NCBI GenBank assembly: GCA_037200965.1
Contig: JBBCGK010000001.1
Location: 480,001-544,000, forward strand
Reading direction: 5' to 3'
Source of the DNA: a bacterium
GTDB taxonomy: Bacteria > Patescibacteriota > Minisyncoccia > Phycocordibacterales > Phycocordibacteraceae
DNA: 64,000 bases
In this document: one piece after another, positions 12,034 through 55,195 of the stretch
How positions within the stretch are numbered: position 1 is the stretch's first letter
Layout of the letters: every line of letters begins with the position of its first letter
Program-made: the position numbers and the translations under genes
Notes under the pieces: generated by a model
What the model was told of the DNA's origin: nothing
What the model saw: only the letters and a program-made list of their open reading frames with translations
The model's database searches: none

Positions 12034-13085
12034 GGTGCCGCATATTCAAACGGCACATATAAGGGCGCTTTTTCAAGAAATACCCGGCTTAAGAGCTCGC
12101 TCTGTTCCGTAATGGTATTGCGGAGCGTACGGCGTTTCCCGTGATGGAGGACTTTCGACTCGAGGCGCTTAAGCACCGCCTCAACCACCTTGCTCTTTCC
12201 TTGCGCAGAAAGCCGATATTCGATCTTGCTTACCTGCTCGAAATCGCCGCGCTTGCCAAGTTCCTGAGAAATGAAGAGCGGCATGACTGCAGCGTCGACG
12301 ACGGGGACCCGAAACTCTTCGACCAGATCGAGGACGAGCGCGGGCTTGCCGTAACGCTCGGAATGATAAAGTCCGAGATACGGGTCGAGACCGATATAAA
12401 GGCACGCCCGCTCGACTTCGTTATAGAGGATGCCGTATCCGTAATTAAGAGCGCTGTTGAACTTGTCCCTGCCTTGCGGTATCCGGCCCGGGAACTTAAA
12501 AAGCGATTTCATGCCTTGCCAATAGCGCTCTGCAATGGATCCTTCAAGGCCAAGCAGTTCCTCGTTCACCCGGTTGCTCGGAAGCAGCTTCGCTATCGAC
12601 TCAAAAACCGCCTCCGCCTGCATCCGCTCCTTCGCATTCTCCGCACCGTATCGGTCGGCAAGATGGCGCATAAAGCGGATTTGGTTGCGGCACTTACCGA
12701 CAACGAAGGTACGCGCAAGTTCGAAGGATTTAGCCGGATCGGAGGAAGTCGTAAGCTGTGCGCGGCGCAATGTCGCGAGCCCCTTCGGGTCGCTTGAGAA
12801 AATGCGCCCGACGGGTTTCCCAAATGCGCCGAGATAGACGATATCGACTTCGTGCTCGAGCGCGAGTTGCACCGCATGCATGGAAATGGAGGACGGACGG
12901 AGTATGACGATCTTAGCAAGCCGCCGGACCGGATACTCCTTCTTAACCCGGAGAAGCTTTACCGCAGTTCCCCGCTTGCGACGCCTGCCACCCCCAAGCG
13001 GCTTTCGCGGAACCGGGAGACTGACCGTAATACGCTCGCCCGTCGCGCCGATGAAGCTGCCATAGGTATCTATCAGCAAATCCAT
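12030..13085 (-). CDS. cas1: CRISPR-associated integrase Cas1
   Basis: Hallmark NALNYGYGILYNEVERACLYIGLDPYLGLYHSERYGKPALVLDLVEEFRVPVVD (Cas1 catalytic region with conserved H/E/D), 351 aa. Confidence 0.85.
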   Translation of the reverse strand: MDLLIDTYGSFIGATGERITVSLPVPRKPLGGGRRRKRGTAVKLLRVKKEYPVRRLAKIVILRPSSISMHAVQLALEHEVDIVYLGAFGKPVGRIFSSDPKGLATLRRAQLTTSSDPAKSFELARTFVVGKCRNQIRFMRHLADRYGAENAKERMQAEAVFESIAKLLPSNRVNEELLGLEGSIAERYWQGMKSLFKFPGRIPQGRDKFNSALNYGYGILYNEVERACLYIGLDPYLGLYHSERYGKPALVLDLVEEFRVPVVDAAVMPLFISQELGKRGDFEQVSKIEYRLSAQGKSKVVEAVLKRLESKVLHHGKRRTLRNTITEQSELLSRVFLEKAPLYVPFEYAAP

Positions 13086-29861: not shown

Positions 29862-31142
29862 CTACGGGAACGATTCTGGAATCGGGCGCAAAAGCGCGAG
29901 CGCCCGGATTTCTCCCCGCACGCGGGCGACGGTCGCCTCGTCGCGCTTGGCAAGGACCTCAAGCATGAGTTCCGCGACGCGTTTCGAGTCTGTTGCATCA
30001 AACCCACGCGTCGTGATTGCGGGCGTGCCGAAGCGGATGCCGGACGGGTCCATGGGCTTCCTGGAGTCGTCGGCGATCATATTCTTATTAAGCGTCATGC
30101 CCGCAGCATCGAGAAGTTTCTCCGCTTCCCCTCCCGAGAGGCCGAGGGAACCGGACACATCCGCCAGAAGGAGATGGTTATCAGTACCGCCCGCGATGAG
30201 GCGCATACCGCCCGACGTGAAAACCTCCGCCATCGCTTTCGCGTTGTCGACCACCTGCTTCGCGTAGGTCTTGAACGAGGGCCGGAGCGCCTCGCCAAAC
30301 GCGACCGCTTTCGCCGCGATCTGATGCATGTGCGGGCCGCCTTGAAGGCCCGGGAACACGGCCTTGTCGATTTTTTTGGCGAGCACCTCGTCTTCGCGCG
30401 TGAGGATGAGCCCGCCGCGCGGTCCCCGCAGCGTCTTGTGCGTCGTGGTCGTCATGAGGTCGAAACCGTAATCAAAGGGATTTTTTGCCGCGCCTCCGGC
30501 GATAAGCCCCGCGATATGCGACACGTCGGCGACCGCGACGGCGCCGACCTCCTTCGCCGCATCCGCGATCTTTTGCCAGTCGAGCTCGCGCGGGTACGCG
30601 GAGAACCCGGCAAGAATCACTTTCGGACGTTCCTTCTTCGCGGTCTCAAGAAGCGCGCCGTAGTCTATCTCGCCGGTGTCGGCGTTTTTCATGCCGTACC
30701 GTACGAAATTGAATATCTTCGAGATATAGGTCACGGGGCTCCCGTGCGTGAGATGTCCGCCGTGCGAGAGATCCATCCCGAGTATCGTGTCGCCCGGCTC
30801 CATAAGCGCCATGTACGCGGCGATGTTCGCGTTCGCCCCCCCGAGCGGCTGCACGTTCGCGAAGCCCGCGCCAAAGAGCTTCTTCGCCCGATCGATCGCG
30901 AGAAGCTCGATTTTATCCGTGAACTCCTGGCCGCCGTAGTAGCGCCTGCCGGGGTACCCTTCCGAGTATTTGTTGGTAAGTGCGCTTGCCATCGCCTCGC
31001 GGACGGCGCGGGAGACGTAATTCTCCGAAGGGATGAGCTCGAGGCTCTCTGTCTGCCGTTCTTCCTCAGCCAGAAGAATTGCCGCGACTGCGGTATCTTC
31101 CTTCTCGATGGTATGAAAATGCATCCTGCCATCTTGGCACAA
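29862..31142 (-). CDS. glyA: serine hydroxymethyltransferase
   Basis: LELIPSENYVS…, PLP-lysine region …TTTHKTLRGPRGG…; about 420 aa. Confidence 0.85.
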   Translation of the reverse strand: MCQDGRMHFHTIEKEDTAVAAILLAEEERQTESLELIPSENYVSRAVREAMASALTNKYSEGYPGRRYYGGQEFTDKIELLAIDRAKKLFGAGFANVQPLGGANANIAAYMALMEPGDTILGMDLSHGGHLTHGSPVTYISKIFNFVRYGMKNADTGEIDYGALLETAKKERPKVILAGFSAYPRELDWQKIADAAKEVGAVAVADVSHIAGLIAGGAAKNPFDYGFDLMTTTTHKTLRGPRGGLILTREDEVLAKKIDKAVFPGLQGGPHMHQIAAKAVAFGEALRPSFKTYAKQVVDNAKAMAEVFTSGGMRLIAGGTDNHLLLADVSGSLGLSGGEAEKLLDAAGMTLNKNMIADDSRKPMDPSGIRFGTPAITTRGFDATDSKRVAELMLEVLAKRDEATVARVRGEIRALALLRPIPESFP

Positions 31143-31199: not shown

Positions 31200-32099
31200 A
31201 TGAGCGCTATCACCCTCACGCGCATCCACTCTCCGAAGTCCACCGCGGACATGCTCCGGCAGATCGTTTTCCGCGGGGTGTATGATAGGCGCGGAAGCTC
31301 CGTACGGCCTTATGAGGACGCGCGCTTCTCCATCACGACGGTTTACCCACAAAGCTCGCCCGGAGGGTCGCCGGAAATCAAGATCGGGAAAAGACGCGAA
31401 CCCCTTTTTACCCCGCAGCCGACCATCTACGAGAATCAGACGAAGATTCTGGAGGAGGTGGATTCGTTCCTGCTCGGGCACGACGTGCGTATGAGCGAAC
31501 TGCGCGGCGCCGTCGAGTATTCGTGGGAAGGCCGGGGGGACTTCCATATCCTTCCGCCCGTCATCGAAAAGCACACCTTTCACCTCCGGGACGGATACCT
31601 TGATCTGGGGAAGTTATTGAAACGCTTCAAGGGCCTCCACGTTAAAGACGCCCGCGGAAAACTCCACCGCCTCTCGGACCGCTATCTGCGCTCGTTTTAT
31701 ATAGACGAGGTGAGCAAGATCGAACACCTCGACGTATTCAACTCGAACGTTCCGATCATCAACTACGGACTCGGGCATAACGGCGCTTTCAGCTTCTATA
31801 TCGTCTGCGACGGCGCGCACCGGCTTGACCTTATCCTCGAAAAAATAAAGAAGCCCATGAACGTGCTCCTGGTCGAGCACCTGGAAAAGGACGCGCATCT
31901 CTACCCCTATTACGCCTTTCCCGTCCCGTTCCGGCCGTCGCTCCGGCTCTCAAGCAAGCTCTCCGAAAAGATGTACCACCGCCTGGAGCGCGACAAGATT
32001 CACATGTTCAACGATTTCATCAAGAAAACCCTCCACTACGACTGGGAAGCGGGCGGACTTAAGGTAAGTAAGCTCAGGAGCAACGCGGAAATCTTCTGA
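31200..32099 (+). CDS. hypothetical protein, possible ParB/sulfiredoxin-like domain
   Basis: ATG at 31200; …NYGLGHNGAFSFYIVCDGAHRLDLI… resembles the DGxHR motif of ParB-like nuclease domains (tentative). Confidence 0.35.
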   Translation: MSAITLTRIHSPKSTADMLRQIVFRGVYDRRGSSVRPYEDARFSITTVYPQSSPGGSPEIKIGKRREPLFTPQPTIYENQTKILEEVDSFLLGHDVRMSELRGAVEYSWEGRGDFHILPPVIEKHTFHLRDGYLDLGKLLKRFKGLHVKDARGKLHRLSDRYLRSFYIDEVSKIEHLDVFNSNVPIINYGLGHNGAFSFYIVCDGAHRLDLILEKIKKPMNVLLVEHLEKDAHLYPYYAFPVPFRPSLRLSSKLSEKMYHRLERDKIHMFNDFIKKTLHYDWEAGGLKVSKLRSNAEIF

Positions 32100-32106
32100 C
32101 TACCCT

Positions 32107-33000
32107 ATGCGTATGAACCCCTCCGATATCACCTCTCTCACACGCGCGCTTGAACTTTCGATATCGACGGCTCCTCCCCAAAAGCAGCATGCGGTTACGG
32201 CATCGGTCGCCTATTCCCGAAGCGGAGCTTCGTATCCGGCCGGAACCGTATCGTCGCAGACGCACATCCTCGACCTCCCTTCCGAACTCGCCGCGCTCGT
32301 CCGCGCTACGCATCACGGGGACTATCCGATCACCGAGGTGCACACGATGGCAGTCGATCCTGCGACGCCCGTCTCGCCGCTTGCGCTCAAAGCCCTCGCC
32401 GACCACACCGCGCGCACGGGTACCGCCATACGCTACGCGGTATTCGATATGGACGGAAACATTCTCTTCTCGGTCGACGACGCGCGCAATGCTCTCCCCT
32501 TTTACCGGATGCCCGAGCACTTGCTCTCAGCCGCAACAGATCCTACGCGGATCGTTGCGCTTCCCCAGGCGCGCGAAGTCGCAGGAGAGAGCATCGAGTC
32601 CCAGCTCCGCCGCTTGTCGCTTGCCGGAACCACGCTCAATTTCCCGACGCGAGACGGCGCGTCGGGCTATGGTGCCGCCGTGCGCACCAAGGACGGCACC
32701 TTCTACTACGGCGGCCAGTACTCGAGCTTCGATAAACGCCTTGGCATACATGCGGAAGTCGCCGTGCTCGTAAACGCGCTTATGAGCGGCGCAAGCGACA
32801 TCACGCACCTGGGCATCATCTCTTCGAAAGCAACCGATACGCCCTGTAACCCTTGCGGTTGCTGCCGCCAGTTCATCAGCGAATTAGCGCGGGCCCGCAC
32901 GTTCGAGCCGCAAATATGGTGTTTCGCCTCCGCCACCGAACAGGCCAACTCTTATGCCATCGACGAGTTGCTTCCCTCCGTATGGACAAATCGCCGATGA
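32107..33000 (+). CDS. cytidine/deoxycytidylate-deaminase-fold protein
   Basis: Zinc-binding HAEVAVL … PCNPCGCCRQF in the C-terminal half; 297 aa. Confidence 0.5.
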   Translation: MRMNPSDITSLTRALELSISTAPPQKQHAVTASVAYSRSGASYPAGTVSSQTHILDLPSELAALVRATHHGDYPITEVHTMAVDPATPVSPLALKALADHTARTGTAIRYAVFDMDGNILFSVDDARNALPFYRMPEHLLSAATDPTRIVALPQAREVAGESIESQLRRLSLAGTTLNFPTRDGASGYGAAVRTKDGTFYYGGQYSSFDKRLGIHAEVAVLVNALMSGASDITHLGIISSKATDTPCNPCGCCRQFISELARARTFEPQIWCFASATEQANSYAIDELLPSVWTNRR

Positions 33001-35396
33001 CAAGCGCAAGACCGCAATTCCCCATCGTCGACGCGCTGCTTTTCGCGCCGCCCGAGTCGGCGAACGGCCGGATCGGCATCTGCACGAATACGAGCGCGCC
33101 GGGCCAGATCTATAACGACGTCGAGGAGAACAACCGCTTGGCGGTATCGATACTCGGGCCCCTGATCGTAAGCCGCGACGGGACGGAGCGCATGATCCTC
33201 AACTCGCTCGCGCACCCCACCCTTTCCTATCTCATACTTTTTTCCGAGGAGTCGCTTACGTTTTCGCCAAGCACCAACTTGCTGCTTGCGCTCATGCACG
33301 GCCTCGACGAGAGCCGCAGCGGCAACTACATCAGGGACGGACAGGCCGTATCCGCGCACTATCCCAATCTCTCAAAAGACATCCTCCGTCTCTTCGGGGA
33401 AACCATCGTCGTGCTCCCGCTCTATATGTCGCAGAACAAGGAGAGCGCCGCGGTCGTTGCCGAGTATCTTGCCTGGCTTGGTCCGCGCATTCCGGAAGAT
33501 GTCTCGTCGTTCCTTAGGGAAGCGAACGCGAAGGAGAAAAAGTATTTCGACGCGCTTAACAAGCTTATCGGGCTCCTGAGAAAGATTCCGGAAAAGGAAA
33601 AGCCTCCGGTCATGCTCGACCCGAAGGACTTCCAGCATCTTCAGCCTCCCACGGTCACGATCCCGAACGAGCGGATACGCGCTACGGTGCCGTTTCGCGT
33701 AACGCTCGAAGGCGGGCTGCTCCGGCTTGACCTACGGCTTGGCGAACGGACGTACTTCATCCGCGACGAAAACGATTTCCGCATCGAGTATTCGCTGATG
33801 AAGTACCTCGGCGAGAGAAAGTCGGAGTTTACGCCGCTTGAGCAGTTACTTATCGGCGCCGAACTGAACCGGGCGAACGTGGAACGCACGAGCGGCCTCG
33901 CCGCGGAACCGTTCACGGAACCGAACGACATACGGGGAACCGAGGAAATCCTGCTCGAACCGAACGTGGCGCTCATCCCCGACCAGGAGTACTACTACAA
34001 AATCGGCCTTAAGGGCGAGCAGGTTTCGGTGATGTGCATGGCGTTCGATATCTGCGAGGAAGTGTTCGAGCTCCGCTCGAAAGAAGCGGGCGGCATATTC
34101 AAGTGGCTGAGCGAAAAAGACCGGTTCCAGAAATACGAAATGGACATGCTCCATCGAATGGATGTCGGCGGCCAGATCGGACGTGCCGCGATCGCGGCGC
34201 GCTTCGGTTATTCGTTCATCCAGGACTTCTCGAGCATTTTCAAGCTCAATACCGAAACGCTTCCGCTTATCCTCGCCGAAGGCGACTCGTTCCTCGATGT
34301 ACACCGGTCGCTTCTTCTCAAGACCTATACCGAAGGCATTACGGAGCCGCACGGCGACGAACGGAAAGGGCTCTCCCGCACCGCCGTCGTACTTGCCGTC
34401 TACCGGGACGGCGCGACCGCGCTCGCGCAGATGCCGGGTATTTATAAGCAAGGCGACCAGTCGACGGAAGAGATGCGCGACGCGTACGCGAAGCAGCTGC
34501 TCCGGCTTGATCACGACGGCGACTATAGCTACGGGGAGCGCACGCGCGTACATTTCGGTTTCGACCAGCTGGAAACCGCGAAAAAAGCGCTCGCGGACAA
34601 CCCGGGACGCGCGACCATCGTGCAGCGCTTTGATCCGACCGAGGATATGGGCAGGTCGCGTAACCCGGATACGGGCCGGACCGAATACACGCACGATCCC
34701 TGCCTTACGCACGACATCTTTTTCGTCCAAAACGGAAAGCTGCATTCGTTCCACGTCGCCCGGGCCCATAACCTTCCGAACGCGTACCCGGAGAACATTT
34801 TCGGTCTTCATGATGCGTATGTCCGCCCCGTCCGCGACAGCCTTGCCCTCGCCTCCGGAGACCTGTACATGCTGTCGAGTCGGGGAAACATCCTCCTCCT
34901 TACCGAGGAGCAGCGCGTGCGGAAGATCATCGCGGAACCGTCGAAACCGATGGGCGCGGTCGATAGCGTAAGCGGCCCGTTTCTTATCGGACCGAACGTG
35001 CGTTCCCCGGCCGTTCCCCAAGGAGGAATTTCTTATACGACTATCAAGCTCGAAGAAAACACTTCCTGCTCCCATCCTTTCCTCGATCGCTTCGCTTCGT
35101 TTGAAGGCATCGATACCATCGAACGGGCTATTTCCTATCTCGAAACTAAGGGCGGGGCGCACAACAACCCCATCCTCACCACATACCAGGCCGGAAAGTC
35201 GGACCCGCAGGAGGACCATCTTGTCTTCTTCCAGGCGAACGTGTTCGGAAAGCGCCTGCAGGCGACCGCCGTATTCGCGAACCACGCGCCGGAACCCGTG
35301 GACCGTGCGCTTATTTTCGCGCTTGCCACGCGCTTCGCAGGCCGGCTCAAGGTCGGGCTCGGAAATGCCGCCATTTTCTATGTCAACGCAGGCTGA
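32997..35396 (+). CDS. large (799 aa) protein with a C-terminal thymidylate-synthase / dCMP-hydroxymethylase-fold domain
   Basis: ATG at 32997 overlaps the upstream stop (ATGA). The C-terminus has DQLETAKKALADNPGRATIVQRFDPTE (compare TS DQ…NPDSRRIIVSAWNP) and HDPCLTHDIFFVQNGKLHSFHVARAHNLPNAYPENIFGLHDAY (compare PCH…NG.LS…QRS.D…PFNI). The N-terminal 500 aa are unknown. Confidence 0.5.
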   Translation: MTSARPQFPIVDALLFAPPESANGRIGICTNTSAPGQIYNDVEENNRLAVSILGPLIVSRDGTERMILNSLAHPTLSYLILFSEESLTFSPSTNLLLALMHGLDESRSGNYIRDGQAVSAHYPNLSKDILRLFGETIVVLPLYMSQNKESAAVVAEYLAWLGPRIPEDVSSFLREANAKEKKYFDALNKLIGLLRKIPEKEKPPVMLDPKDFQHLQPPTVTIPNERIRATVPFRVTLEGGLLRLDLRLGERTYFIRDENDFRIEYSLMKYLGERKSEFTPLEQLLIGAELNRANVERTSGLAAEPFTEPNDIRGTEEILLEPNVALIPDQEYYYKIGLKGEQVSVMCMAFDICEEVFELRSKEAGGIFKWLSEKDRFQKYEMDMLHRMDVGGQIGRAAIAARFGYSFIQDFSSIFKLNTETLPLILAEGDSFLDVHRSLLLKTYTEGITEPHGDERKGLSRTAVVLAVYRDGATALAQMPGIYKQGDQSTEEMRDAYAKQLLRLDHDGDYSYGERTRVHFGFDQLETAKKALADNPGRATIVQRFDPTEDMGRSRNPDTGRTEYTHDPCLTHDIFFVQNGKLHSFHVARAHNLPNAYPENIFGLHDAYVRPVRDSLALASGDLYMLSSRGNILLLTEEQRVRKIIAEPSKPMGAVDSVSGPFLIGPNVRSPAVPQGGISYTTIKLEENTSCSHPFLDRFASFEGIDTIERAISYLETKGGAHNNPILTTYQAGKSDPQEDHLVFFQANVFGKRLQATAVFANHAPEPVDRALIFALATRFAGRLKVGLGNAAIFYVNAG

Positions 35397-36057
35397 CCGA
35401 TTCAAAGACGTGCGCGTCGTCGGATTCGATCTCGACCAGACGCTGTATCCGAAATCGCCGGATATCGATACGATGATCCAAAAGTACCTGTATGAAAAGA
35501 TAGCCGAGCACCGCGGCATCGCCCTTATCGACGCAGAGCTGCTGTTTAAAGAGCTGTACCGGGACGGTTCGGGACTGTCGGGGCGGCAGACCCTCGAATC
35601 GCTCGGGCTTTCCGAGGCGTCGAACCTGGTGCAAGAGGCCCTCGAGCGCGCCGACATCGCCGCGGTGCTGCGTCCGGATCAGACAGTGAACCGATTCCTT
35701 GCCGAGCTGCGCGTTTCCTGTGATGGAATGGATCTGATTACCGGCTCGAACCTGTCTCAAACACAAAAGAAGCTCGCGGCTCTCGGGCTTTCTCCCGAAA
35801 GCTTCACCCACTGCCTTACCGAAGACCAGGCGAGCAAATCGGACGGTGCGGCATACCGGCTGTGGCTTTCCCTCTATCCGCACCTTCCGCCGCGGCACTT
35901 TCTCTATATCGGGGACCGGGTGCAAAGCGACCACGTGGTCCCGGCGGCGCTTGGCATACGCACCGCACTCGTTAATGTGCGAGCTGTCGACGCGCAAATC
36001 AGCGTCCCCCAGCTTCCGAGTTTGCTTGATCTGCGGGGCCTGCTCCCGGCACGATAG
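35380..36057 (+). CDS. HAD-superfamily hydrolase/phosphatase
   Basis: Motif I VVGFDLDQTLY immediately after the start; about 225 aa. Confidence 0.6.
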   Translation: MSTQADRFKDVRVVGFDLDQTLYPKSPDIDTMIQKYLYEKIAEHRGIALIDAELLFKELYRDGSGLSGRQTLESLGLSEASNLVQEALERADIAAVLRPDQTVNRFLAELRVSCDGMDLITGSNLSQTQKKLAALGLSPESFTHCLTEDQASKSDGAAYRLWLSLYPHLPPRHFLYIGDRVQSDHVVPAALGIRTALVNVRAVDAQISVPQLPSLLDLRGLLPAR

Positions 36058-36105: not shown

Positions 36106-37022
36106 GGGTAATCCCTAATTCCTGCCACCAAACCCAGTGCCCTGAACGAGCGTGAGCAGACGCTCCTCCTGCTCGGCAAGCGTCTTCGTGCGGCGGTTGA
36201 ACTTCCAGGCGATCTCTCCGACGAAGAGGTACAGATGCGTACGGCGCATGCCGCCGATGCATCCGAGACGACGCTTCAAGAGCCCCCAGAAGCCCTCGAT
36301 GTTGTTCGTATGCACGTCGCCGCGTACGAGCTCTCCGCCGTCATGATCCACGTACTCGTGACGGTACCCCCGCTTCTTGAGGCCGCGGTATGTTTTGAAG
36401 CCGTCGGTATACACGTACGCTCCCTCCGGCACCAGCCGCTCGATCGTGCTGAAGATGGTCCTCCAATCAAGCTTCTTGGGGAGTATGGCGACATATACCT
36501 GTCCGGAGGTCCGCGAAAAGAGCCCGAAGATGGGAAGCTTGTCGGTCCCGTGACCGCGCTTCGTTTCCAGACGCCGGATGTGGAGACGTTTGTTCTTGCG
36601 CTGGCCGCCGATGTACGTTTCGTCCATCTCGATTGGACCGGGAAGCACGGCTGGCTGGTCAGCCGTCATGACCGTACGGAGATGGAGTGCCATGCGCTCC
36701 ACGCGCGAATGCGGTATTCCCGTCTCCTCAACGATACGTTTGATCGTCCGCTCCCTGAGGAAGACACGTATGCACTTCCGCCACTCGGCTTCCGTGCTGC
36801 GGATGCCCTCAACTGGAGCTGCGTGCCCGCTCCACTCGCGTCTGCACCGCCTGCACTTCAGTTTGTTCCTGCGGAGTTTCCAGGCACGGCGGAAGGCGCA
36901 ATACGGACATACAGGAGCGGGCATATATGGTGGCACTATTAGGTATTGCACCACTGTGCCCGTCAGAGAGCCTCACGCAAGGATATTTCAAAGATATGTG
37001 GTGGCAGAGTTAGGGATTACCC
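36106..37022 (-). mobile_element. IS1595-family insertion sequence, 917 bp, with perfect 13-bp terminal inverted repeats (GGGTAATCCCTAA) and 7-bp flanking duplication ATTCAAA
   Basis: IRs at 36106..36118 and 37010..37022 seen directly; ATTCAAA flanks both ends (36099..36105 and 37023..37029); a single transposase ORF lies inside. Confidence 0.75.
36115..36954 (-). CDS. IS1595-family (ISXO2-like) DDE transposase
   Basis: N-terminal Zn-finger-like CPYC…CRRC, DETYIGG…, NIEGFWGLLKR motif; 279 aa. Confidence 0.8.
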   Translation of the reverse strand: MVQYLIVPPYMPAPVCPYCAFRRAWKLRRNKLKCRRCRREWSGHAAPVEGIRSTEAEWRKCIRVFLRERTIKRIVEETGIPHSRVERMALHLRTVMTADQPAVLPGPIEMDETYIGGQRKNKRLHIRRLETKRGHGTDKLPIFGLFSRTSGQVYVAILPKKLDWRTIFSTIERLVPEGAYVYTDGFKTYRGLKKRGYRHEYVDHDGGELVRGDVHTNNIEGFWGLLKRRLGCIGGMRRTHLYLFVGEIAWKFNRRTKTLAEQEERLLTLVQGTGFGGRN

Positions 37023-38327: not shown

Positions 38328-39371
38328 TCAAGCAGCTGTACGCGTCCAGTACCTCTGGCACTCCTCGGCCGTTAATGAGGAGAGTATATACCGGAGCGGC
38401 GGCACCTGTCCCAGGGACTCGTGCGGACGCCGGGCGTTGTACCAGAGCAGCCAGTCGACCAGCTTCAGGTTGAATGCCGCGACGTCGTCCCGCAGGAGCG
38501 GCCGATTGAGCATGATGCAGTCCTCCGAGATCGTCCGGTTGAACCGCTCGACGAACGCGTTCATCTTCGGGCTGCGGGGAAACGTATTGAAGTGGGTGAG
38601 GCCGAGGGCGCGGCACCCCGCCTCGAAGTTCTTGGCGAACTCCGGGCCGTTGTCGGTCTGGAGCTCCGTGATGTCGAAGGGGCACACCGCGATGACGCGC
38701 GCGAGGAAATCGGCGGCGGACGCGGAGGAGTGGACGGTATACGCGCCGGCGAAGGCGAACTTCTTCTCGACATCGATGGCGGTCAGGACGTACCGCTTCA
38801 CGCCGTCGATGAAGCGGACGACGGTGTCGAGCTCCATGCCCCGCTTGTGCCGCCTGCGCAGCTTCGTGCGCTTCGATACGGGCTTCTCCCGATACGTGCC
38901 GCTTCGCGCATAGTATGAGAGCGGCTTGTGCGGGAGCAGCAGCCCTCTCCTCTTGAGGTCCGCGACGACCCTCCCGACATACGATTCGGATACCCGGTAC
39001 CCGTCCTCCCGCAGCAGGGCTGCGAGCTTCGCCTTGCCGAGCCTCGGATGCTCCGCGCGCTCCTTCAGGATGAACGTCTCGACCTCGGGGAGGACGATGC
39101 GTCTCCTCCGATTCTTCGGTGCCGTCGACTTGGGATCGAGCGCGTCGAGTCTCCCGTGCGCGCGGTCGAGCTTCGCCTGCCAACGGAAGAGCGTGCGGCG
39201 AGAGACGCTGAAGGCGTCCCTGGCCGCACGCTCCCCGTGCGTTTTCCAGAAGTCCAGCACCTTGACCCGATGCCGCACCTCGTCGTTGTTCCTCATATGC
39301 AGGAAGCGTATGCTCCGCTCGCGCATATACAACCAGCCCTCGGTATCCTTCAGTATGTTGAATTGACGCAT
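38328..39371 (-). CDS. IS481-family transposase (HTH + rve/DDE integrase core)
   Basis: …ELQTDNGPEF… DDE core; 347 aa. Confidence 0.75.
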   Translation of the reverse strand: MRQFNILKDTEGWLYMRERSIRFLHMRNNDEVRHRVKVLDFWKTHGERAARDAFSVSRRTLFRWQAKLDRAHGRLDALDPKSTAPKNRRRRIVLPEVETFILKERAEHPRLGKAKLAALLREDGYRVSESYVGRVVADLKRRGLLLPHKPLSYYARSGTYREKPVSKRTKLRRRHKRGMELDTVVRFIDGVKRYVLTAIDVEKKFAFAGAYTVHSSASAADFLARVIAVCPFDITELQTDNGPEFAKNFEAGCRALGLTHFNTFPRSPKMNAFVERFNRTISEDCIMLNRPLLRDDVAAFNLKLVDWLLWYNARRPHESLGQVPPLRYILSSLTAEECQRYWTRTAA

Positions 39372-45479: not shown

Positions 45480-46523
45480 ATGCGTAAGCTACTCTCAACC
45501 TCTAACTGCCCGCATATGATACCACGTATGTATACCCACCTAACGTTCGAGGAACGAGAATGCATTGGTCTTATGCGTGCAGCCTACTTCTGGCCAGTCG
45601 AAATCGCACGCGAGCTCAATCGCGATCCTAAAACCATCAGACGAGAGCTCAGACGCTCGAAACCGTTGTTTGAAGGATACCGACCAAGCCGGGCACACAA
45701 AGATGCACGAAAGAAAAAGAAAATCCCGAGACGCGGGAAGAAGCTCAACTACGCGCCTCTTCAGCGTGTCGTGTATGCAAAGCTCCGGCTTCGCTGGAGC
45801 CCGGAGCAGATTGCGCAGTACTTGAAACAGCACTACGCTACAGATACTCGTATGCAAGTCTCCCACGAATCCATCTACACCTATATCTATGTGCTCCCGC
45901 GCGGGAGCCTCCGCAAGGAGCTTACGTCGTACCTGCGCCAGGGCGCCGAAGGGCGCAGGCGCAGGTATCGGGTGCACGACAGGCGAGGAAAGATACCCAA
46001 TATGGTGAGTATTCACGAGCGCCCCAAAGAAACGGAAGACCGCTCAGTACCTGGACACTGGGAGAGCGACCTCATTATCGGCAAAGGACATCAATCAGCC
46101 ATTGCGACCTTGGTGGAACGCACCACGCGCATGACCATTCTGGTGCCGCTCAGAGAAAAGACCGCTCCTGCGGTGCGCATGGCACTTACGAAAACCGTGA
46201 AGAGCTTGCCCCGCGAAGCCTTCCGATCAATCACCCATGATCGCGGCAGCGAGATGGCTGAGCACGAACTCTTCACCAAAGAGACCAGGGTGCAGGTGTA
46301 TTTCGCTGATCCACAAAGCCCGTGGCAGCGTGGTACAAACGAAAATACCAATGGCCTTATTCGTCAGTATTTCCCCAAGGGAACGGACTTCCGGCGGGTG
46401 CCAACTAAGTATTTGAAGCAAGCGCAGAAGCAGCTCAATACTCGGCCCAGAAAAGCTATCGGCTTCAAAACACCTGAAGAAGCATTTGCGCTATTATTAA
46501 AGAAGCGGGCATTTAGAGTTTGA
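45480..46523 (+). CDS. IS30-family transposase
   Basis: …HWESDLIIG… and …NENTNGLIRQYFPKGTDF… IS30 DDE signatures. Confidence 0.8.
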   Translation: MRKLLSTSNCPHMIPRMYTHLTFEERECIGLMRAAYFWPVEIARELNRDPKTIRRELRRSKPLFEGYRPSRAHKDARKKKKIPRRGKKLNYAPLQRVVYAKLRLRWSPEQIAQYLKQHYATDTRMQVSHESIYTYIYVLPRGSLRKELTSYLRQGAEGRRRRYRVHDRRGKIPNMVSIHERPKETEDRSVPGHWESDLIIGKGHQSAIATLVERTTRMTILVPLREKTAPAVRMALTKTVKSLPREAFRSITHDRGSEMAEHELFTKETRVQVYFADPQSPWQRGTNENTNGLIRQYFPKGTDFRRVPTKYLKQAQKQLNTRPRKAIGFKTPEEAFALLLKKRAFRV

Positions 46524-46532
46524 ATTCAAGTA

Positions 46533-47450
46533 ATGGTTCAATACCTTGGCACCACTAAGCCAAGTCGCATGCCATACACCACCAACCCCCGTATGCCCCG
46601 CATCCGCCGCGAAGCGGCGGATCTCTTCCGCCAAGGCTGGAGCGCGCGCAAGATCGGGCGGCATCTCGGGTACCATCACACCGCCGTCATGAAATGGGTG
46701 CGAAGGGCCGAACGCATCGGATACCACCCGATACCGACGCGCTCGTCGCGTCCGAAGCGCCATCCCCGGCAGCTCTCAGACGAACTCCGCTGGAAGATCT
46801 TCCATACCCGGCTCAAGTCGAAGCGAAGCGCGGAAGTCATTCAGCGCATACTGGAGGAGGAAGGGGTGGTGATTTCACTCTCCACCATCAAGCGAACGCT
46901 TGACCGCATGGGCCTCCTCAAGAAGAGGAGCCCGTACAAGCGATACCACCCACAGGTCGACCGCCCCCTGCCGGAGAAACCCGGTTCCCTCGTCCAGATC
47001 GACACCATTCACACCATGCTCGATTTGAAGAAGCGGATGTATACCTTCACCCTCATCGACGTGCATTCCCGCACCGCGTACGCGAAGACCTATGCGCGCA
47101 TGGATGCCGCGACCGCCGTGCGCTTCGTCGAGGAGGCGCAGCGGAGAGCGTCCTTCCGCTTCGAAATGCTCCAGAGCGACCATGGTCCCGAGTTCGGGGC
47201 GTGGTTCGTCGAGCGCATCCGGAGGAAGCACCGGTATTCCCGCATCGGGAAACCCAACGACAATGCGCATATCGAGCGATTCAACCGCACGCTTCAGGAG
47301 GAGTGCCTCGACCATGCGCGCAGAAGTCCGGAAGCGTTCAATGCGGCTCTGAAGAAATACATCCCCTGGTACAACCGGGAGCGGCACCATTTCGGCCTGA
47401 ATCTCCTGACCCCGGCACAAGTACTCAAGGAGGTGGTGCCAAGGTGTTGA
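46533..47450 (+). CDS. IS481-family transposase (second, non-identical copy), 10 bp after the IS30 transposase gene
   Basis: HTH then rve core …LQSDHGPEFGAWF…NDNAHIERFNRTLQEE…. Confidence 0.75.
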   Translation: MVQYLGTTKPSRMPYTTNPRMPRIRREAADLFRQGWSARKIGRHLGYHHTAVMKWVRRAERIGYHPIPTRSSRPKRHPRQLSDELRWKIFHTRLKSKRSAEVIQRILEEEGVVISLSTIKRTLDRMGLLKKRSPYKRYHPQVDRPLPEKPGSLVQIDTIHTMLDLKKRMYTFTLIDVHSRTAYAKTYARMDAATAVRFVEEAQRRASFRFEMLQSDHGPEFGAWFVERIRRKHRYSRIGKPNDNAHIERFNRTLQEECLDHARRSPEAFNAALKKYIPWYNRERHHFGLNLLTPAQVLKEVVPRC

Positions 47451-52394: not shown

Positions 52395-52399
52395 AACTG

Positions 52400-52471
52400 G
52401 GCGGCTAGAGAGAATCGAACTCTCGACGCGGGTACCACAAACCCGAGTTTTACCACTAAACTATAGCCGCC
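52400..52471 (-). tRNA. tRNA-His (GTG) with genome-encoded G-1 and 8-bp acceptor stem
   Basis: Manual fold: G-1 + GCGGCTA / TAGCCGC + C73, anticodon arm CGGGT-TTGTGGT-ACCCG, T-arm GAGAG-TTCGATT-CTCTC. Confidence 0.8.
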
Positions 52472-52956
52472 ATGAATTGCTCTCGCGGCTCTTCGTAATG
52501 ATGTACGAGGAAGTGGCAGTTATGGCACAGCCACGCGAGATTACTCAACTTATTGTTTTTCCGGTTCTTGTCAATGTGGTGCACAGCAAGCACCCGGATA
52601 TCTGTAGTTTTGCACAAACGGCATAATTTAGGAACCTTGTGACGACTGAGTACTGAACGGTAGGAATGCAGCCCTGTTGTAAAGTTTGAATGCTTGTTGC
52701 CGACATAAAGTTGATTGCGCCAGCGTGTTTGGCAACTTTTGCCACAGAAAAATAGTTTGCTCTTAGACCCTTTGAGTTGCTTTGGTTTCTTGTAGGAATC
52801 TTTCCCGCAGATAAAACATGGCATTTCCTTTCCTTTGCGCATTCCTGCGTACTGACAGGTCGGAGAGCAGTACTTGCCATAACCTTTTTTTATCCAATAA
52901 GGTTTTGCGTTGAAGTTTTTACCGCAGAATGTGCAAGTGACGAGTGCCATTCTCAT
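52456..52956 (-). CDS. HNH endonuclease-domain protein
   Basis: Multiple CxxC pairs and HHIDKNRKNNKLSNLAWLCHNCH; the 3' end overlaps the tRNA-His gene by ~16 nt. Confidence 0.55.
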   Translation of the reverse strand: MRMALVTCTFCGKNFNAKPYWIKKGYGKYCSPTCQYAGMRKGKEMPCFICGKDSYKKPKQLKGSKSKLFFCGKSCQTRWRNQLYVGNKHSNFTTGLHSYRSVLSRHKVPKLCRLCKTTDIRVLAVHHIDKNRKNNKLSNLAWLCHNCHFLVHHYEEPREQFMAAIV

Positions 52957-53010
52957 ATTTTATCGACCAAAACTGAAAGGTAAACAGGAGGAATTGTGGA
53001 TATTATAAAT

Positions 53011-53580
53011 TTAACGATAGCTCGGCGACTCTTCGGCTATGCCGGACTTGAAATTCGCAAGGCGCGCGAGCGCGAAGAGGAGCGAGGAGAGACGGTTGAG
53101 ATACGCGCGGGTGTTCGGGGAAAGCGCGCGGAGGCCCAGCTCGTGCACTCCGACCGCGCGGCGCTCCGCACGCCTTGCAAGGGTGCGCGCGACGTCAAGG
53201 AGCGCGGAAAGCTCGGTGCCGCCCGCAATCGAGAAACGCGTGATCGGAGGGATTTCTTTCTCGATCGTGTTGATGATGTTCTCGAGGCTCGTCACTTTCC
53301 CCTTCCCTGTTTTCTTCGGTGCCCCCGCCATTTCCGCCTGGATGATGAAGAGGGTCCCCTGTACGTCGCGGAGGATCGCGGAGATGGTGAGTTTCTTCTT
53401 CCCTATCGTTACGCCCGAATCCTGCACGCTCTTCGCGCGCACCTTGCAGAGCCCAAGGTATGAGTTGAGCTCGTCTAAAGTACCAAGCGCCTCCGGAAGC
53501 TCCGAAGACTTCGAAATACGCTGCTGGTCGCAGCCGAACGTCTTGGTGGTCCCACCATCCCCTTTGCCGGTATAGAGCAT
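53011..53580 (-). CDS. PduO-type ATP:cob(I)alamin adenosyltransferase-like protein
   Basis: MLYTGKGDGGTT… N-terminus and …GTLDELNSYLG… typical of Cob_adeno_trans. Confidence 0.7.
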   Translation of the reverse strand: MLYTGKGDGGTTKTFGCDQQRISKSSELPEALGTLDELNSYLGLCKVRAKSVQDSGVTIGKKKLTISAILRDVQGTLFIIQAEMAGAPKKTGKGKVTSLENIINTIEKEIPPITRFSIAGGTELSALLDVARTLARRAERRAVGVHELGLRALSPNTRAYLNRLSSLLFALARLANFKSGIAEESPSYR

Positions 53581-53606
53581 AGAGTAAGTTATGGCATTAT
53601 ATCAGT

Positions 53607-54200
53607 ATGCGGACACGGGGATTCACCCTCATCGAGCTCCTGGTTGTCATTGCCATCATCGGCATCCTTTCTTCGGTCGTGGTCGTCTCTCTTAATGCCG
53701 CGCGAGCGAAGGCCCGCGATGCCAAGCGCATCTCTGACATCCATCAGATCCAGAAAGCGGTTGAGATATATAACGCGACCGTCGGCTTGCCTCCTGCCCC
53801 GGCGGCATACGGACGAGGCAATTCCTCACCGGGGAATTTCGACACCTGGTGGGACCTCTCGACGAACGATCCGTCCAACTTCATGAGCTTCCTCAAAAGC
53901 TCCGGCGTGATGCCGCAGGTCTCGGTCGACCCGGTGAACGATCCGGCGAGTTTCAACGGAGTCGCCGGAGCCGCAGGACACCGCTACTTCTATTTCTTCG
54001 TGCCCGCGAATTACCTATACCAGGGCGGGGCGTGCCGCAATAATGCCGCGACCTATATGCTCGGCATTACCGACCTTGAGACGGACGCTTCGCGCCCGTC
54101 GACGAAGTTCAGCGGAGGCGGGTGCTCCTGTCTCTGGAACAACGCGCAGAACTTCTTCGACGCGAGCTTTGATTACGTCGTGTGCGGGAGCGTGAGCTAG
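53607..54200 (+). CDS. type IV pilin / pseudopilin-like protein (prepilin N-terminal methylation motif)
   Basis: MRTRGFTLIELLVVIAIIGIL (class III signal, G|FTLIE). Confidence 0.75.
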   Translation: MRTRGFTLIELLVVIAIIGILSSVVVVSLNAARAKARDAKRISDIHQIQKAVEIYNATVGLPPAPAAYGRGNSSPGNFDTWWDLSTNDPSNFMSFLKSSGVMPQVSVDPVNDPASFNGVAGAAGHRYFYFFVPANYLYQGGACRNNAATYMLGITDLETDASRPSTKFSGGGCSCLWNNAQNFFDASFDYVVCGSVS

Positions 54201-54216
54201 GGATACGAACAAAATG

Positions 54217-54244
54217 AAAAACCGCCTTCGGGCGGTTTTTCATT
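54217..54244 (+). terminator. rho-independent terminator (ACCGCC-TTCG-GGCGGT plus T-run)
   Basis: aaaaaccgccttcgggcggtttttcatttt directly after the pilin gene. Confidence 0.6.
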
Positions 54245-54325
54245 TTAGTGCCCAGGTTGACCTCTTTTCCGAACTGCCTCAAATCTACAAGGCAGTACAG
54301 GAAAGCATGGTCGGAATAGAGCGTC

Positions 54326-54967
54326 TTAGGTTCTTGAAGTCCCTTTATCGAATAGCGACTGATACATCTTTAGGCGCTCCTGATAGAACTTCTCAAGTAT
54401 CTCCGGATGGAGCGGGAAATGCTGAGTAAGGTGATGATGCCCGCCGTCGCCTGAATCAAAGAAAATGTGCTGTTTGAGGTAATAGAGATAGAAGCCGTAG
54501 CCGAGCTTCTCCCAGTCATGCGCAGCGACCACCTTCTCGAATATGGAGGTAAGTTCTTCCTCGCGAGAGAAGACTGTCATCGCTCGGTCTGCTGGAGACA
54601 ATGTTTCGACTGCATGAACGTACTCTTGTGATGCTGCCTCAACTTCAGGCTTTGATGAGGCAATACTGTACTTCTTTACGAAGTGGTCGAGGAACTGCCA
54701 GTGGTCTCCCTTTGAGACGTAATCATCAAAAGTCATGTTGTCGGTCTCTAGTTCTCCACTGACCATCTCCATCATCCGACTGTCTTCAGGATAAAGTTCG
54801 ACACCGGCACGAAGGCTGCTGGCAAACTCTTTTGCAGTCGCAAGCGAGAGGAGAATGATGTCGCGCGGGTCAGCGTCCTGCCACGGAAGTCCGGCAATCT
54901 GCTTAACGAGTTCCTTGTGACGATAGACACCTTCAGGAGCTGGCATGGTTTCTGACATGAACACCAC
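54326..54967 (-). CDS. conserved hypothetical protein, paralog B of 25210..25791
   Basis: Shares …FSREEELTSIF…DSGDGGHHHLTQHFPLHPEILE… with paralog A. Confidence 0.5.
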   Translation of the reverse strand: MVFMSETMPAPEGVYRHKELVKQIAGLPWQDADPRDIILLSLATAKEFASSLRAGVELYPEDSRMMEMVSGELETDNMTFDDYVSKGDHWQFLDHFVKKYSIASSKPEVEAASQEYVHAVETLSPADRAMTVFSREEELTSIFEKVVAAHDWEKLGYGFYLYYLKQHIFFDSGDGGHHHLTQHFPLHPEILEKFYQERLKMYQSLFDKGTSRT

Positions 54968-55080
54968 TATATCTTGAAGTCAACGAGTTCGGAACGGGTC
55001 AAAACGGTTTCGTTTTTTACGAACCTAAAAATCAGAAACGACTGGGTGTTTGCTCAGTCGTTTCTGTTATCTGTCCTATC

Positions 55081-55167: not shown

Positions 55168-55195
55168 AGATGAGCACCTGAGGACTATATCGCAA

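What the first reader, a model, noticed from the sequence alone, without database searches (positions are those of the whole stretch)
31200..36057. Cluster of nucleotide-modifying folds: ParB-like, cytidine-deaminase-like, 799-aa protein with TS/dCMP-hydroxymethylase fold, HAD phosphatase
Four co-directional, partly overlapping genes encode:
- a ParB/Srx-like protein;
- a CDA-fold zinc deaminase (HAE…PCxxC);
- a large protein whose C-terminus matches thymidylate synthase / dCMP hydroxymethylase motifs, including the PC(H) nucleophile region and the NP..R…NP segment;
- a HAD phosphatase.
Together this resembles pathways that make modified pyrimidines, as in phage DNA hypermodification or nucleotide salvage, rather than canonical thyA. 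The 500-aa N-terminal extension is uncharacterised.
Basis: partly seen in the sequence, partly recalled or inferred. Interest (0 to 1): 0.55.

Follow-up and report, generated by a model that had tools for sequence, protein, structure and literature searches.

The report
Noncanonical thymidylate-synthase-like four-gene operon
A tightly packed operon in a tiny symbiotic (CPR) bacterium joins a cytosine deaminase, an unusual five-part relative of thymidylate synthase, a phosphatase and a ParB-like protein. It is one version of a widespread enzyme set for which I found no published description, and its product is still unknown: either the DNA building block thymidylate made in a new way, or a modified uracil nucleotide.

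Summary
The four genes are real, co-directional and overlapping. They form a fixed cassette (ParB-CE, tandem cytidine-deaminase-like, about 800-aa TS-like, HAD) in 54 species-level genomes of CPR bacteria and DPANN archaea.

Neighbours point to thymidylate metabolism: dUTPase in 20 loci and SHMT in 15, plus FolD, Ndk and Tmk in a few.

The active site is not ThyA-like. Asp169 is an invariant Asn, His207 and Tyr209 are lost, and the folate helix is absent. The Asn169 signature held in every ParB-CE/HAD-linked TS-like protein that could be read from 83 further ParB-CE loci (28 of 28). One sister family next to ParB-CE keeps Asp169. Relatives in classical dCMP-deaminase/SHMT/FolD operons keep Asp169, His207 and Tyr209.

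Best reading (about 0.5): a non-canonical cytosine-to-thymidylate module. A modified uracil nucleotide or flavin-assisted chemistry cannot be excluded. The cassette is not viral and is not ordinary thyA. It is a new variant of a known kind.

The parts
31200..32099 (+). ParB-CE protein (299 aa): ParB/Srx-like core with the C203-D-G-x-H207-R208 motif and the conserved P236-Y-Y-A motif
32107..32556 (+). N-terminal degenerate half of the tandem CDA-like protein (residues about 1-150). It has 'SSE' in place of H/C-A-E and no zinc cysteines.
   Evidence: Alignment A3.
32569..33000 (+). Catalytic cytidine-deaminase domain (residues about 155-297): H215-A-E217 and C250-G-x-C253-R-Q. The ribose-binding N-x-E of CDD enzymes is replaced by G-Q-Y-S-S.
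   Evidence: 1ux1, E 9.5e-14.
32982..35396 (+). Multi-domain TS-like protein. It is 804 aa from the called start at 32982, or 799 aa from 32997.
33054..33596 (+). MtrA-like Rossmann-type domain (residues about 20-200). The cobalt-ligating His84 of MtrA is an invariant Phe89 here.
33639..33956 (+). Linker domain of unknown fold relationship (residues about 215-320): a beta-sheet plus two long helices
33984..34211 (+). Probable DUF4346 / 'PterinBD' domain (residues about 330-405)
   Evidence: Not detected in the window protein itself. Four divergent orthologues give PF14251 hits at E 5e-4 to 0.1 over the whole model at this position. Sister families give 4e-13 and 2e-7.
34254..34976 (+). Catalytic TS-fold domain (residues about 420-660). 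Equivalents to E. coli ThyA: Y512 (Y94), R544 (R126/127), C569 (C146; codon 34701-34703), R589 (R166), N592 (D169), N600 (N177).
   Evidence: Invariance.
35052..35393 (+). Degenerate second TS half (residues about 686-799). 'D-P-Q' replaces 'D-P-C'. Inferred to act as an intramolecular pseudo-dimer partner.
   Evidence: Internal hhalign of residues 505-650 against 686-799: E 5e-4, 97 columns aligned in register.
35380..36057 (+). HAD phosphatase (225 aa) with motifs D17-x-D19-x-T21, T121-G-S123, K153 and G178-D179-x4-D184
   Evidence: PF00702. Best NCBIfam hit is TIGR01993 pyrimidine 5'-nucleotidase, 3.7e-11 but below the cut-off. Closest solved structure is yeast SSM1/Sdt1, E 7e-4. Motif conservation.
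29862..31124 (-). Serine hydroxymethyltransferase (glyA), divergently transcribed 75 nt upstream of the operon. It is the likely source of methylene-tetrahydrofolate.
   Evidence: PF00464. SHMT is adjacent to the cassette in 15 of 54 loci, in three different arrangements.

Best explanation
**What it is.** The operon is a self-contained module that turns cytosine nucleosides or nucleotides into a C5-one-carbon-substituted uracil nucleotide, most probably thymidylate. It uses a non-canonical, archaeal-type thymidylate synthase.

**Proposed steps.**
1. The tandem cytidine-deaminase-like protein deaminates (deoxy)cytidine or its phosphate to the uracil form. The zinc site is shown; the substrate is inferred.
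2. The TS domain of the 800-aa protein binds a uracil 5'-nucleotide. Asn600 specifies uracil, and Arg461, Arg544 and Arg589 hold the phosphate. Cys569 attacks C6. Motifs and fold are shown; the chemistry is inferred.
3. The one-carbon unit comes from methylene-folate made by the neighbouring SHMT. The MtrA-like and DUF4346 domains present the cofactor, replacing the folate-binding helix that this TS clade lacks (inferred).
4. The cysteine-less C-terminal TS half replaces the second subunit of the usual homodimer (inferred).
5. The HAD phosphatase and the ParB-CE protein set the phosphorylation state of substrate or product. They could act as a pyrimidine nucleotidase or phosphotransferase and as an NTP-dependent kinase or NTPase. 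Their exact steps are unknown.
For: **Fold and motifs.**
- Searches give the TS fold and the motif map. One search shows that C569, R589 and N600 are invariant.

**Conservation and fusions.**
- The cassette is conserved in 47 of 54 loci across CPR bacteria and DPANN archaea, with median gaps of 1, -7 and -4 nt.
- Natural fusions exist: CDA+TS (P0245) and TS+HAD (P0247, seen on 4 contigs).

**Thymidylate-pathway neighbours.**
- dUTPase sits in 20 loci and SHMT in 15, the latter upstream divergent or directly downstream on the same strand.
- FolD sits in 4 loci, Ndk in 2 and Tmk in 1. No canonical dCMP deaminase appears in any locus.

**A homologue in a textbook TS operon.**
- An MtrA-TS-DUF4346 protein (P0286) lies in the order dUTPase, dCMP deaminase, TS, SHMT, FolD.

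**Family placement.**
- Relatives reach the TIGR03283 cut-off: P0280 at 190.8 bits and P0293 at 207.9 bits.

**Need for the product.**
- Parcubacteria lack de novo nucleotide synthesis and must interconvert salvaged nucleotides (PMC4508563).
Against: **The active site is not ThyA-like.**
- Asp169 is an invariant Asn592, His207 and Tyr209 are Asn631 and Leu633, and the W80/W83 folate helix is absent.
- From my own knowledge of L. casei TS Asp221 mutants, this aspartate is needed for folate-dependent dTMP formation.
- In phage TS homologues, D169N marks flavin-dependent C5-hydroxylases: all nine D169N variants tested gave the hydroxylated product (PMC13326640).

**The signature tracks ParB-CE/HAD linkage.**
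- It was present in all 28 such TS-like proteins that could be read.
- Relatives in classical TS contexts keep Asp169, His207 and Tyr209.

**Unexplained components.**
- A fused or adjacent phosphatase is hard to fit into a pathway whose product is a nucleotide.
- The ParB-CE role is unknown. A canonical Tmk next to the cassette in L005 argues against ParB-CE being simply the missing dTMP kinase.

**Distribution and untested points.**
- The family is rare, with 54 of 185,579 species genomes, so it is not the general TS of CPR bacteria.
- I could not check whether these genomes lack thyA or thyX.
Confidence: 0.5

Rival explanations
1. The module makes a modified uracil nucleotide, 5-hydroxymethyl- or 5-hydroxy-(d)UMP, for DNA or for a nucleoside-derived metabolite. 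In this reading the deaminase feeds (d)UMP and the TS-like enzyme installs the group. ParB-CE would phosphorylate the product or its hydroxymethyl group, as serine kinases of this fold phosphorylate a CH2OH. The HAD would remove a competing or terminal phosphate. This set resembles the hmU-phage enzyme set: deaminase, dUMP hydroxymethylase, hmdUMP kinase and dTMP nucleotidase.
For: - D169N is invariant. It is the experimentally validated signature of flavin-dependent 5-hydroxylating TS homologues.
- The position equivalent to Leu143 is polar (His566).
- The signature correlated completely with ParB-CE/HAD linkage in the 28 TS-like proteins that could be read.
- ParB-CE's nearest structures are small-molecule kinases.
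- ParB-CE and HAD are fused in P0497.
- The module also occurs in other bacterial lineages (Magnetococcales, soil and rhizosphere metagenomes), which I assume to be free-living organisms with ordinary TS genes.
Against: - No glycosyltransferase, dedicated DNA polymerase or nuclease-evasion genes accompany the cassette, and there is no viral link.
- The neighbours are housekeeping thymidylate genes, and SHMT and FolD imply a folate one-carbon donor.
- The fused domains are pterin-associated.
- Known hydroxymethylases keep Asp169.
- The Leu143 rule does not transfer to this clade: P0280 and P0302 have Asp and Glu there (P0280 scores above the TIGR03283 cut-off, P0302 just below).
- From my own knowledge, many CPR and DPANN organisms live in anoxic settings, where an O2-dependent hydroxylase is unlikely.
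Confidence: 0.27
2. These are ordinary salvage genes: a standard thymidylate synthase plus a standard dCMP or cytidine deaminase and a housekeeping nucleotidase. They lie together by chance or by lineage synteny.
For: - JGI annotates several orthologues as 'thymidylate synthase'.
- Part of the surrounding gene order (ArgRS, L11, NusG) is plain lineage synteny.
Against: - The window protein has no PF00303 hit and scores 45.6 bits against a 174.55 cut-off for TIGR03283.
- It has a five-domain, 800-aa architecture.
- The cassette order is conserved across two domains of life, and fusions exist.
- The ParB-CE partner is conserved even in sister families.
Confidence: 0.04
3. The cluster is a mobile or defence-related nucleotide-depletion island of phage origin.
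For: - An IS1595 transposase lies directly downstream.
- The cassette has a patchy, cross-domain distribution that suggests horizontal transfer.
- dCTP-deaminase partners occur in other versions of the module.
Against: - No PADLOC hit for any of the four proteins.
- No PHROG hit other than TS.
- Only one distant match in IMG/VR, at 22% identity.
- GC content is the same as in the flanks.
- In most loci the cassette lies between ArgRS/SHMT and L11/NusG.
Confidence: 0.03

Closest known systems
Methanogen-type thymidylate synthase (NCBIfam TIGR03283) and its MtrA / DUF4346 fusions
   Same: - Same compact TS fold, lacking the folate-binding helix of ThyA.
- Shared Y-x-Y-G-x-R, P-C, R-x-x-[D/N] and P-x-N motifs.
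- Fusion to MtrA-like and DUF4346 domains.
- P0286 of this class sits in a dUTPase, dCMP-deaminase, TS, SHMT, FolD operon.
   Different: - The window protein scores 45.6 bits against the 174.55 cut-off.
- It has Asn for Asp169 and lacks His207 and Tyr209.
- It carries an extra linker domain and a dead second TS half.
- It is always paired with ParB-CE and HAD.
Canonical ThyA (E. coli; PF00303)
   Different: - No Pfam hit.
- Asp169 is Asn.
- His207, Tyr209 and W80/W83 are absent.
- It is a single-chain pseudo-dimer rather than a homodimer (inferred).
- It has about 420 extra N-terminal residues.
Flavin-dependent dCMP 5-hydroxylases of phages (AfhB of HY126, RB69 gp48, DLP3 gp80; PDB 9iqc, 9iqu)
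   Different: - Those enzymes have Asp at position 177 (cytosine-specific); here it is Asn (uracil).
- They are small, about 220 aa, viral, and followed by glycosyltransferases.
- Flavin binding by the window protein was not tested.
Pyrimidine hydroxymethylases (T4 gp42 dCMP hydroxymethylase, MilA) and, from my own knowledge, the hmU pathway of Bacillus phages such as SPO1
   Different: - No sequence relationship for the partner enzymes.
- These are cellular, not viral, genomes.
- The hydroxymethylases keep Asp169.
MtrA, the corrinoid-binding subunit of methyl-H4MPT:coenzyme M methyltransferase
   Different: The cobalt ligand His84 is an invariant Phe89. This organism is not a methanogen and has no Mtr complex.
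ParB/Srx-fold enzymes: free serine kinases SerK and SbnI, sulfiredoxin, ParB CTPases
   Different: The extra N-terminal beta domain and the conserved PYYA motif are specific to PF24392. No activity is known for this family.
Homotetrameric and tandem cytidine deaminases (B. subtilis CDD, E. coli CDA)
   Same: The H-A-E and P-C-G-x-C-R-Q zinc site is present (E 9.5e-14). The two-domain layout has one dead half, as in E. coli CDA.
   Different: The order of the halves is reversed, with the dead half first. The ribose-binding Asn and Glu are replaced by Gln and Ser. The score is below the NCBIfam cut-off (50.6 against 113.65).

Membership tests
ThyA thymidylate synthase (PF00303 / TIGR03284) | Profile score above the curated cut-off | tested here: not met
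   The window protein has no PF00303 hit at E<=1. Only a few orthologues give weak hits.
ThyA thymidylate synthase (PF00303 / TIGR03284) | TS alpha/beta fold with the nucleophilic Cys in a P-C motif, plus Arg166 and Asn177 | tested here: met
ThyA thymidylate synthase (PF00303 / TIGR03284) | Asp169 contacting the pterin ring | tested here: not met
   Invariant Asn592.
ThyA thymidylate synthase (PF00303 / TIGR03284) | His207 and Tyr209 binding the deoxyribose 3'-OH, and the W80/W83 folate helix | tested here: not met
   N631 and L633 take the place of H207 and Y209. The helix segment is deleted.
ThyA thymidylate synthase (PF00303 / TIGR03284) | Catalysis of dUMP + CH2-THF to dTMP + DHF | not testable with these tools
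   Needs an enzyme assay or complementation.
Methanogen-type TS (TIGR03283) | Score above the equivalog cut-off of 174.55 bits | tested here: not met
   45.6 bits over residues 490-605. Relatives P0280 (190.8) and P0293 (207.9) do pass.
Flavin-dependent C5-hydroxylating TS homologues (AfhB type) | Asn at the position of Asp169 | tested here: met
   Asn592 is invariant. The rule comes from PMC13326640.
Flavin-dependent C5-hydroxylating TS homologues (AfhB type) | Asp at position 177 (dCMP substrate) | tested here: not met
   Asn600 is invariant.
Flavin-dependent C5-hydroxylating TS homologues (AfhB type) | Bound flavin and O2-dependent hydroxylation | not testable with these tools
   Needs a purified protein spectrum and product analysis.
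Cytidine deaminase (CDD; TIGR01354) | H/C-A-E and P-C-G-x-C-R-Q zinc and catalytic motifs | tested here: met
   H215, E217, C250 and C253 are invariant in 40 sequences. PDB profile hit to 1ux1 at E 9.5e-14.
Cytidine deaminase (CDD; TIGR01354) | Equivalog cut-off score and ribose-binding N-x-E | tested here: not met
   50.6 bits against 113.65. The motif is G-Q-Y-S-S.
MtrA (PF04208) | Rossmann-like MtrA fold | tested here: met
MtrA (PF04208) | His84 lower axial ligand of the cobamide | tested here: not met
   It aligns with the invariant Phe89.
DUF4346 / PterinBD (PF14251) | Profile match | tested here: inconclusive
   No hit in the window protein. Four orthologues give E 5e-4 to 0.1 at the same place. 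Sister families are significant.
ParB-CE (PF24392), ParB/Srx superfamily | Pfam score above the cut-off and a DGxHR-type motif | tested here: met
   30.3 bits against 23. D204-G-x-H207-R208 is invariant and is shared by 42 diverse family members.
ParB-CE (PF24392), ParB/Srx superfamily | ParB/Srx fold | tested here: inconclusive
HAD phosphatases, pyrimidine 5'-nucleotidase subfamily (TIGR01993) | Four HAD motifs with the DxD nucleophile and acid pair | tested here: met
   D17, D19, T21, T121, S123, K153, D179 and D184 are at least 95% conserved.
HAD phosphatases, pyrimidine 5'-nucleotidase subfamily (TIGR01993) | Equivalog cut-off | tested here: not met
   43.1 bits against 142.9.

The most novel reading that the evidence does not exclude
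The cassette is the CPR/DPANN version of a widespread enzyme system for which I found no description in the held paper library. The core is a TS-like protein with Asn in place of Asp169 (fused to MtrA-like and DUF4346 domains), an HAD-superfamily protein and a ParB-CE protein, fed by a cytosine or dCTP deaminase.

This system would carry out C5 chemistry on uracil nucleotides that neither ThyA nor ThyX performs. Two possibilities stand out:
- a third, flavin- or accessory-domain-assisted route to thymidylate that does not oxidise folate;
- the first cellular pathway to a 5-hydroxy- or 5-hydroxymethyl-uracil nucleotide.
Probability: 0.3. Interest if true: 0.85.

Novelty: new variant of a known kind. 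Interest (0 to 1): 0.63.

Why it matters
Thymidylate synthesis has so far been assigned to only two enzyme types, ThyA and ThyX, and both are drug targets.

**A distinct TS-fold lineage.**
- It has a different cofactor-facing residue, extra pterin/corrinoid-type domains and a built-in pseudo-partner.
- It has two conserved companions, HAD and ParB-CE.
- The companions recur from CPR bacteria and DPANN archaea to Magnetococcales and soil and rhizosphere metagenomes. One ParB-CE subgroup alone gives 379 metagenomic loci.

**If the product is dTMP.**
- It would define how a group of ultra-small symbionts makes the one DNA precursor they cannot obtain by reducing ribonucleotides.
- It would suggest a folate-sparing mechanism.

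**If the product is a modified uracil nucleotide.**
- It would be the first such pathway in cells rather than in viruses.

**In either case.**
- It gives a testable function to the ParB-CE family (PF24392) and to DUF4346.
- It shows that automatic 'thymidylate synthase' labels on these proteins are unsafe.

Tried and rejected
- **Sequence searches of the solved-structure library.** The family profile of the large protein found only MtrA, not TS. The ParB-like profile found nothing significant. Fold searches were needed for both.
- **Cobalamin binding by the MtrA-like domain.** Rejected in its known His-on form, because His84 is Phe89.
- **ParB-CE as the missing thymidylate kinase of Parcubacteria** (prompted by PMC4508563). 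Weakened by a canonical Tmk next to the cassette in L005 and by the ParB-CE/HAD fusion.
- **A catalytic cysteine in ParB-CE, Srx-like.** Rejected, because the residue is Asn in most family members.
- **Viral or defence origin.** Rejected.
- **thyA or thyX in the window or in the 55 loci.** None found, but this is uninformative for whole genomes.
- **The Leu143 rule for methyl versus hydroxymethyl products.** It does not transfer to this clade.
- **One HAD family across all versions of the module.** Not so. The soil version uses a different HAD subfamily with a D-x-G motif.
- **Literature.** Searches for DUF4346, PterinBD, ParB-CE and the gene combination found no description.
- **Regulatory signals.** The promoter and terminator scan was uninformative.

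Full report
**1. The observation**

The window is a roughly 58% GC stretch of a Parcubacteria/Kaiserbacteria-like CPR genome. The 804-aa product is identical to an NCBI MAG protein, and it is recorded on a contig of 960,259 bp. Gene calls on two public contigs of the same organism give four co-directional genes of 299, 297, 804 and 225 aa. They correspond to window coordinates 31200-32099, 32107-33000, 32982-35396 and 35380-36057. The first gap is 7 nt, and the next two junctions overlap by 19 and 17 nt.

SHMT is transcribed divergently 75 nt upstream, and ArgRS lies beyond it. An IS1595 transposase, then L11, NusG and SecE, lie downstream.

**2. The four proteins**

- **Deaminase.** It is a tandem protein. 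The C-terminal half has the cytidine-deaminase zinc site, H215-A-E217 and C250-G-x-C253-R-Q, invariant in 40 orthologues. Its profile hits B. subtilis CDD at E 9.5e-14. The N-terminal half is degenerate, and the ribose-binding N-x-E of CDD enzymes is replaced by G-Q-Y-S-S. It belongs to the cytidine-deaminase family, not the dCMP-deaminase family.
- **HAD protein.** It keeps all four phosphatase motifs. Its best, sub-threshold matches are pyrimidine 5'-nucleotidases: TIGR01993 at 3.7e-11 and yeast SSM1/Sdt1.

**3. The 800-aa protein**

It has no Pfam hit of its own. NCBIfam gives 'thymidylate synthase, methanogen type' over residues 490-605 (5.6e-12, 45.6 bits against a cut-off of 174.55) and a faint MtrA hit over residues 40-148.

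An alignment of 68 orthologues gave a model with pLDDT 86 and pTM 0.74.
- Foldseek against the PDB returns thymidylate synthases and the CMP hydroxymethylase MilA at E about 1e-9.

Further domain evidence:
- The cobalt-ligating His84 of MtrA (PMC4915002) aligns with an invariant Phe89.
- Residues about 330-405 give weak PF14251 (PterinBD-DUF4346) hits in four divergent orthologues, always at this position. Sister families give significant hits there.
- An internal profile comparison shows that residues 686-799 are a degenerate copy of the TS core, residues 512-630, with D-P-Q in place of D-P-C (E 5e-4, 97 columns). This points to an intramolecular pseudo-dimer.

The architecture is therefore: MtrA-like domain, linker, DUF4346-like domain, active TS domain, dead TS half.

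**4. The active site**

I aligned the protein to E. coli ThyA. The ungapped spacing from the P-C motif agrees with the alignment.

Equivalents that are present, all invariant:
- C146 = C569
- R166 = R589
- N177 = N600, which implies a uracil substrate rather than cytosine
- Y94 = Y512
- R126/127 = R544

Differences:
- D169 is an invariant Asn592.
- H207 and Y209 are Asn631 and Leu633.
- L143 is His566.
- The W80/W83 folate helix is missing, as it is in all methanogen-type TS proteins.

PMC13326640 reports that N177 against D sets uracil against cytosine specificity. It also reports that D169N is an experimentally validated marker of flavin-dependent 5-hydroxylating TS homologues.

**5. Conservation**

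A scan of one genome per GTDB species found 54 loci. They come from Paceibacteria-type CPR bacteria (Kaiser-, Zambryski-, Nomura-, Vogel- and Sungbacteria) and from DPANN archaea (Woese-, Nano- and Iainarchaeota).

- 47 of the 54 loci carry ParB-CE, CDA, TS and HAD. Almost all have the window's order; L045 has TS-HAD-ParB-CDA. Only one locus with enough flank lacks the first two genes, and one lacks HAD.
- Median gaps are 1, -7 and -4 nt.
- Natural fusions exist: CDA+TS (P0245, 1111 aa) and TS+HAD (P0247, 981 aa, on four contigs).
- The family is compact, with about eight full-length clusters at 50% identity among 1.84 billion representatives.
- It is essentially absent from viral contigs, from PHROGs apart from TS, and from PADLOC.

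**6. Neighbours**

Within 8 kb of the cassette, across the loci:
- dUTPase occurs in 20 loci.
- SHMT occurs in 15 loci, either upstream and divergent or directly downstream on the same strand (L030, L048).
- FolD occurs in 4 loci, Ndk in 2 archaeal loci and Tmk in 1.
- A canonical dCMP deaminase occurs in none.

A 519-aa MtrA-TS-DUF4346 relative (P0286) sits in the order dUTPase, nucleotidyltransferase, HIT, dCMP deaminase, TS, SHMT, FolD. This is the main evidence that the clade acts in folate-dependent thymidylate synthesis.

**7. A wider module**

- The sister 811-877-aa families lie next to ParB-CE (P0271) or next to ParB-CE plus an orthologous HAD (P0266; 33% identity to the window's HAD).
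- A search with those ParB-CE proteins found a larger PF24392 family in Micrarchaeota, Nitrospirae and Magnetococcales, including an HAD+ParB-CE fusion.
- Three of those loci were inspected (one of them from a Magnetococcales MAG). All three combine a TS-like protein, an HAD, ParB-CE and a dCTP deaminase.
- A metagenome scan with one ParB-CE subgroup found 379 loci. Of the 22 with at least 2.5 kb on both sides, 19 have the TS-like gene and 20 the HAD gene, in the order TS, HAD, ParB-CE.
- All 28 TS-like proteins from the 83 further ParB-CE loci that could be read have R-x-H-N (that is, D169N), Asn177, and S-H-S-I-S in place of the His207/Tyr209 motif.
- Relatives in classical contexts or above the TIGR03283 cut-off (P0286, P0280, P0302) keep Asp169, His207 and Tyr209.
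- The HAD of the soil version belongs to a different subfamily, with a D-x-G motif.
- The P0266/P0271/P0274 group keeps Asp169, so the D169N correlation is strong but not absolute.

**8. Interpretation**

The context argues for a cytosine-to-thymidylate module, with the CDA-like protein taking the place of dCMP deaminase. The accessory domains would supply cofactor binding that this truncated TS fold lacks.

The distinct active-site signature, and its tight link to ParB-CE and HAD, argue that the chemistry or the cofactor differs from ThyA. It could be flavin-assisted methylation, or it could give a hydroxymethyl or hydroxyl product.

The roles of HAD and ParB-CE are not established. I put about 0.5 on dTMP as the product, about 0.27 on a modified uracil nucleotide and the remainder on other options. 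Ordinary thyA salvage and phage or defence origins are effectively excluded.

I could not examine whole genomes for thyA or thyX, which is the most informative missing computation. No paper in the held library describes the family or the gene combination.

Noticed in passing
window 5735-5770, 7319-7354, 8730-8765, 11669-11704 (+): Four exact copies of the 36-nt repeat GTTGCACAACCTCCTTTTTACGAACGATCCTGCAGG lie 1.4-2.9 kb apart, where none is expected by chance. They bracket whole genes in a low-GC (0.51-0.52) stretch and end right beside cas2 and cas1. The length is that of a CRISPR repeat, but the 'spacers' are kilobase-sized and carry genes, like a cassette array. This is unexplained.
   Followed up: partly
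window 11737-13085 (-), and 9497-11529 (-): Cas1 (PF01867, 1e-63) and a weak Cas2 are present, with no ordinary CRISPR array anywhere in the window. The adjacent 523-aa and 154-aa ORFs have no Pfam hit.
   Followed up: partly
window 36115-36954 (-), 38328-39371 (-), 45480-47450 (+): Several transposase or integrase genes interrupt otherwise conserved synteny. An IS1595 element sits between the operon and L11/NusG, and an rve-type ORF follows SecE. In most related loci L11 and NusG follow the HAD gene within about 1-2.5 kb of its end.
   Followed up: no
window 1341-3592 and 4099-6219, 8596-9363: A LysR regulator and a GNAT protein lie in a 62% GC stretch. Nearby are an SpvB/FG-GAP protein (706 aa) and a patatin-like phospholipase. 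This is unusual cargo for a roughly 1-Mb CPR genome and suggests acquired DNA.
   Followed up: no
L062 5445-8185: In an archaeal contig, a 394-aa TS-like protein with Asp at position 177 (cytosine-type), which also has the dead C-terminal TS half, follows a single 519-aa MtrA+MtrH fusion protein. This links a corrinoid-type domain and a methyl-pterin-binding domain to a TS-like enzyme.
   Followed up: no
P0293 (786 aa, Abditibacteriota): This protein has two tandem TS-like domains, both with Asn at position 169, each followed by a DUF4346 domain. The second copy has lost the catalytic Cys (V-P-S). It is a real duplicated pseudo-dimer, parallel to the degenerate half in the window protein.
   Followed up: no
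L064 3689-9741: This is a compact bacterial operon: dUTPase, cytidylyltransferase-like, HIT, dCMP deaminase, MtrA-TS-DUF4346, SHMT, FolD. The nucleotidyltransferase and HIT pair occupies the place that ParB-CE and HAD take elsewhere.
   Followed up: no
L065-L147 (soil and rhizosphere metagenome loci): The HAD partner in the widespread TS, HAD, ParB-CE trio has motif I F-D-I-G-S-T. It lacks the second Asp of phosphatases, so it may not be a simple phosphatase.
   Followed up: partly
L060 1972-5786; L061 8861-11329; L066 8229-9485: Nucleotide-sugar genes lie next to sister TS-like genes in three loci. They include UDP-glucose 6-dehydrogenase overlapping the TS stop codon, and RmlA-, RmlB- and RmlD-like genes.
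   Followed up: no
window 52399-62286: A cluster of eight tRNA genes lies here, including two adjacent tRNA-Arg genes that are 80% identical to each other.
   Followed up: no
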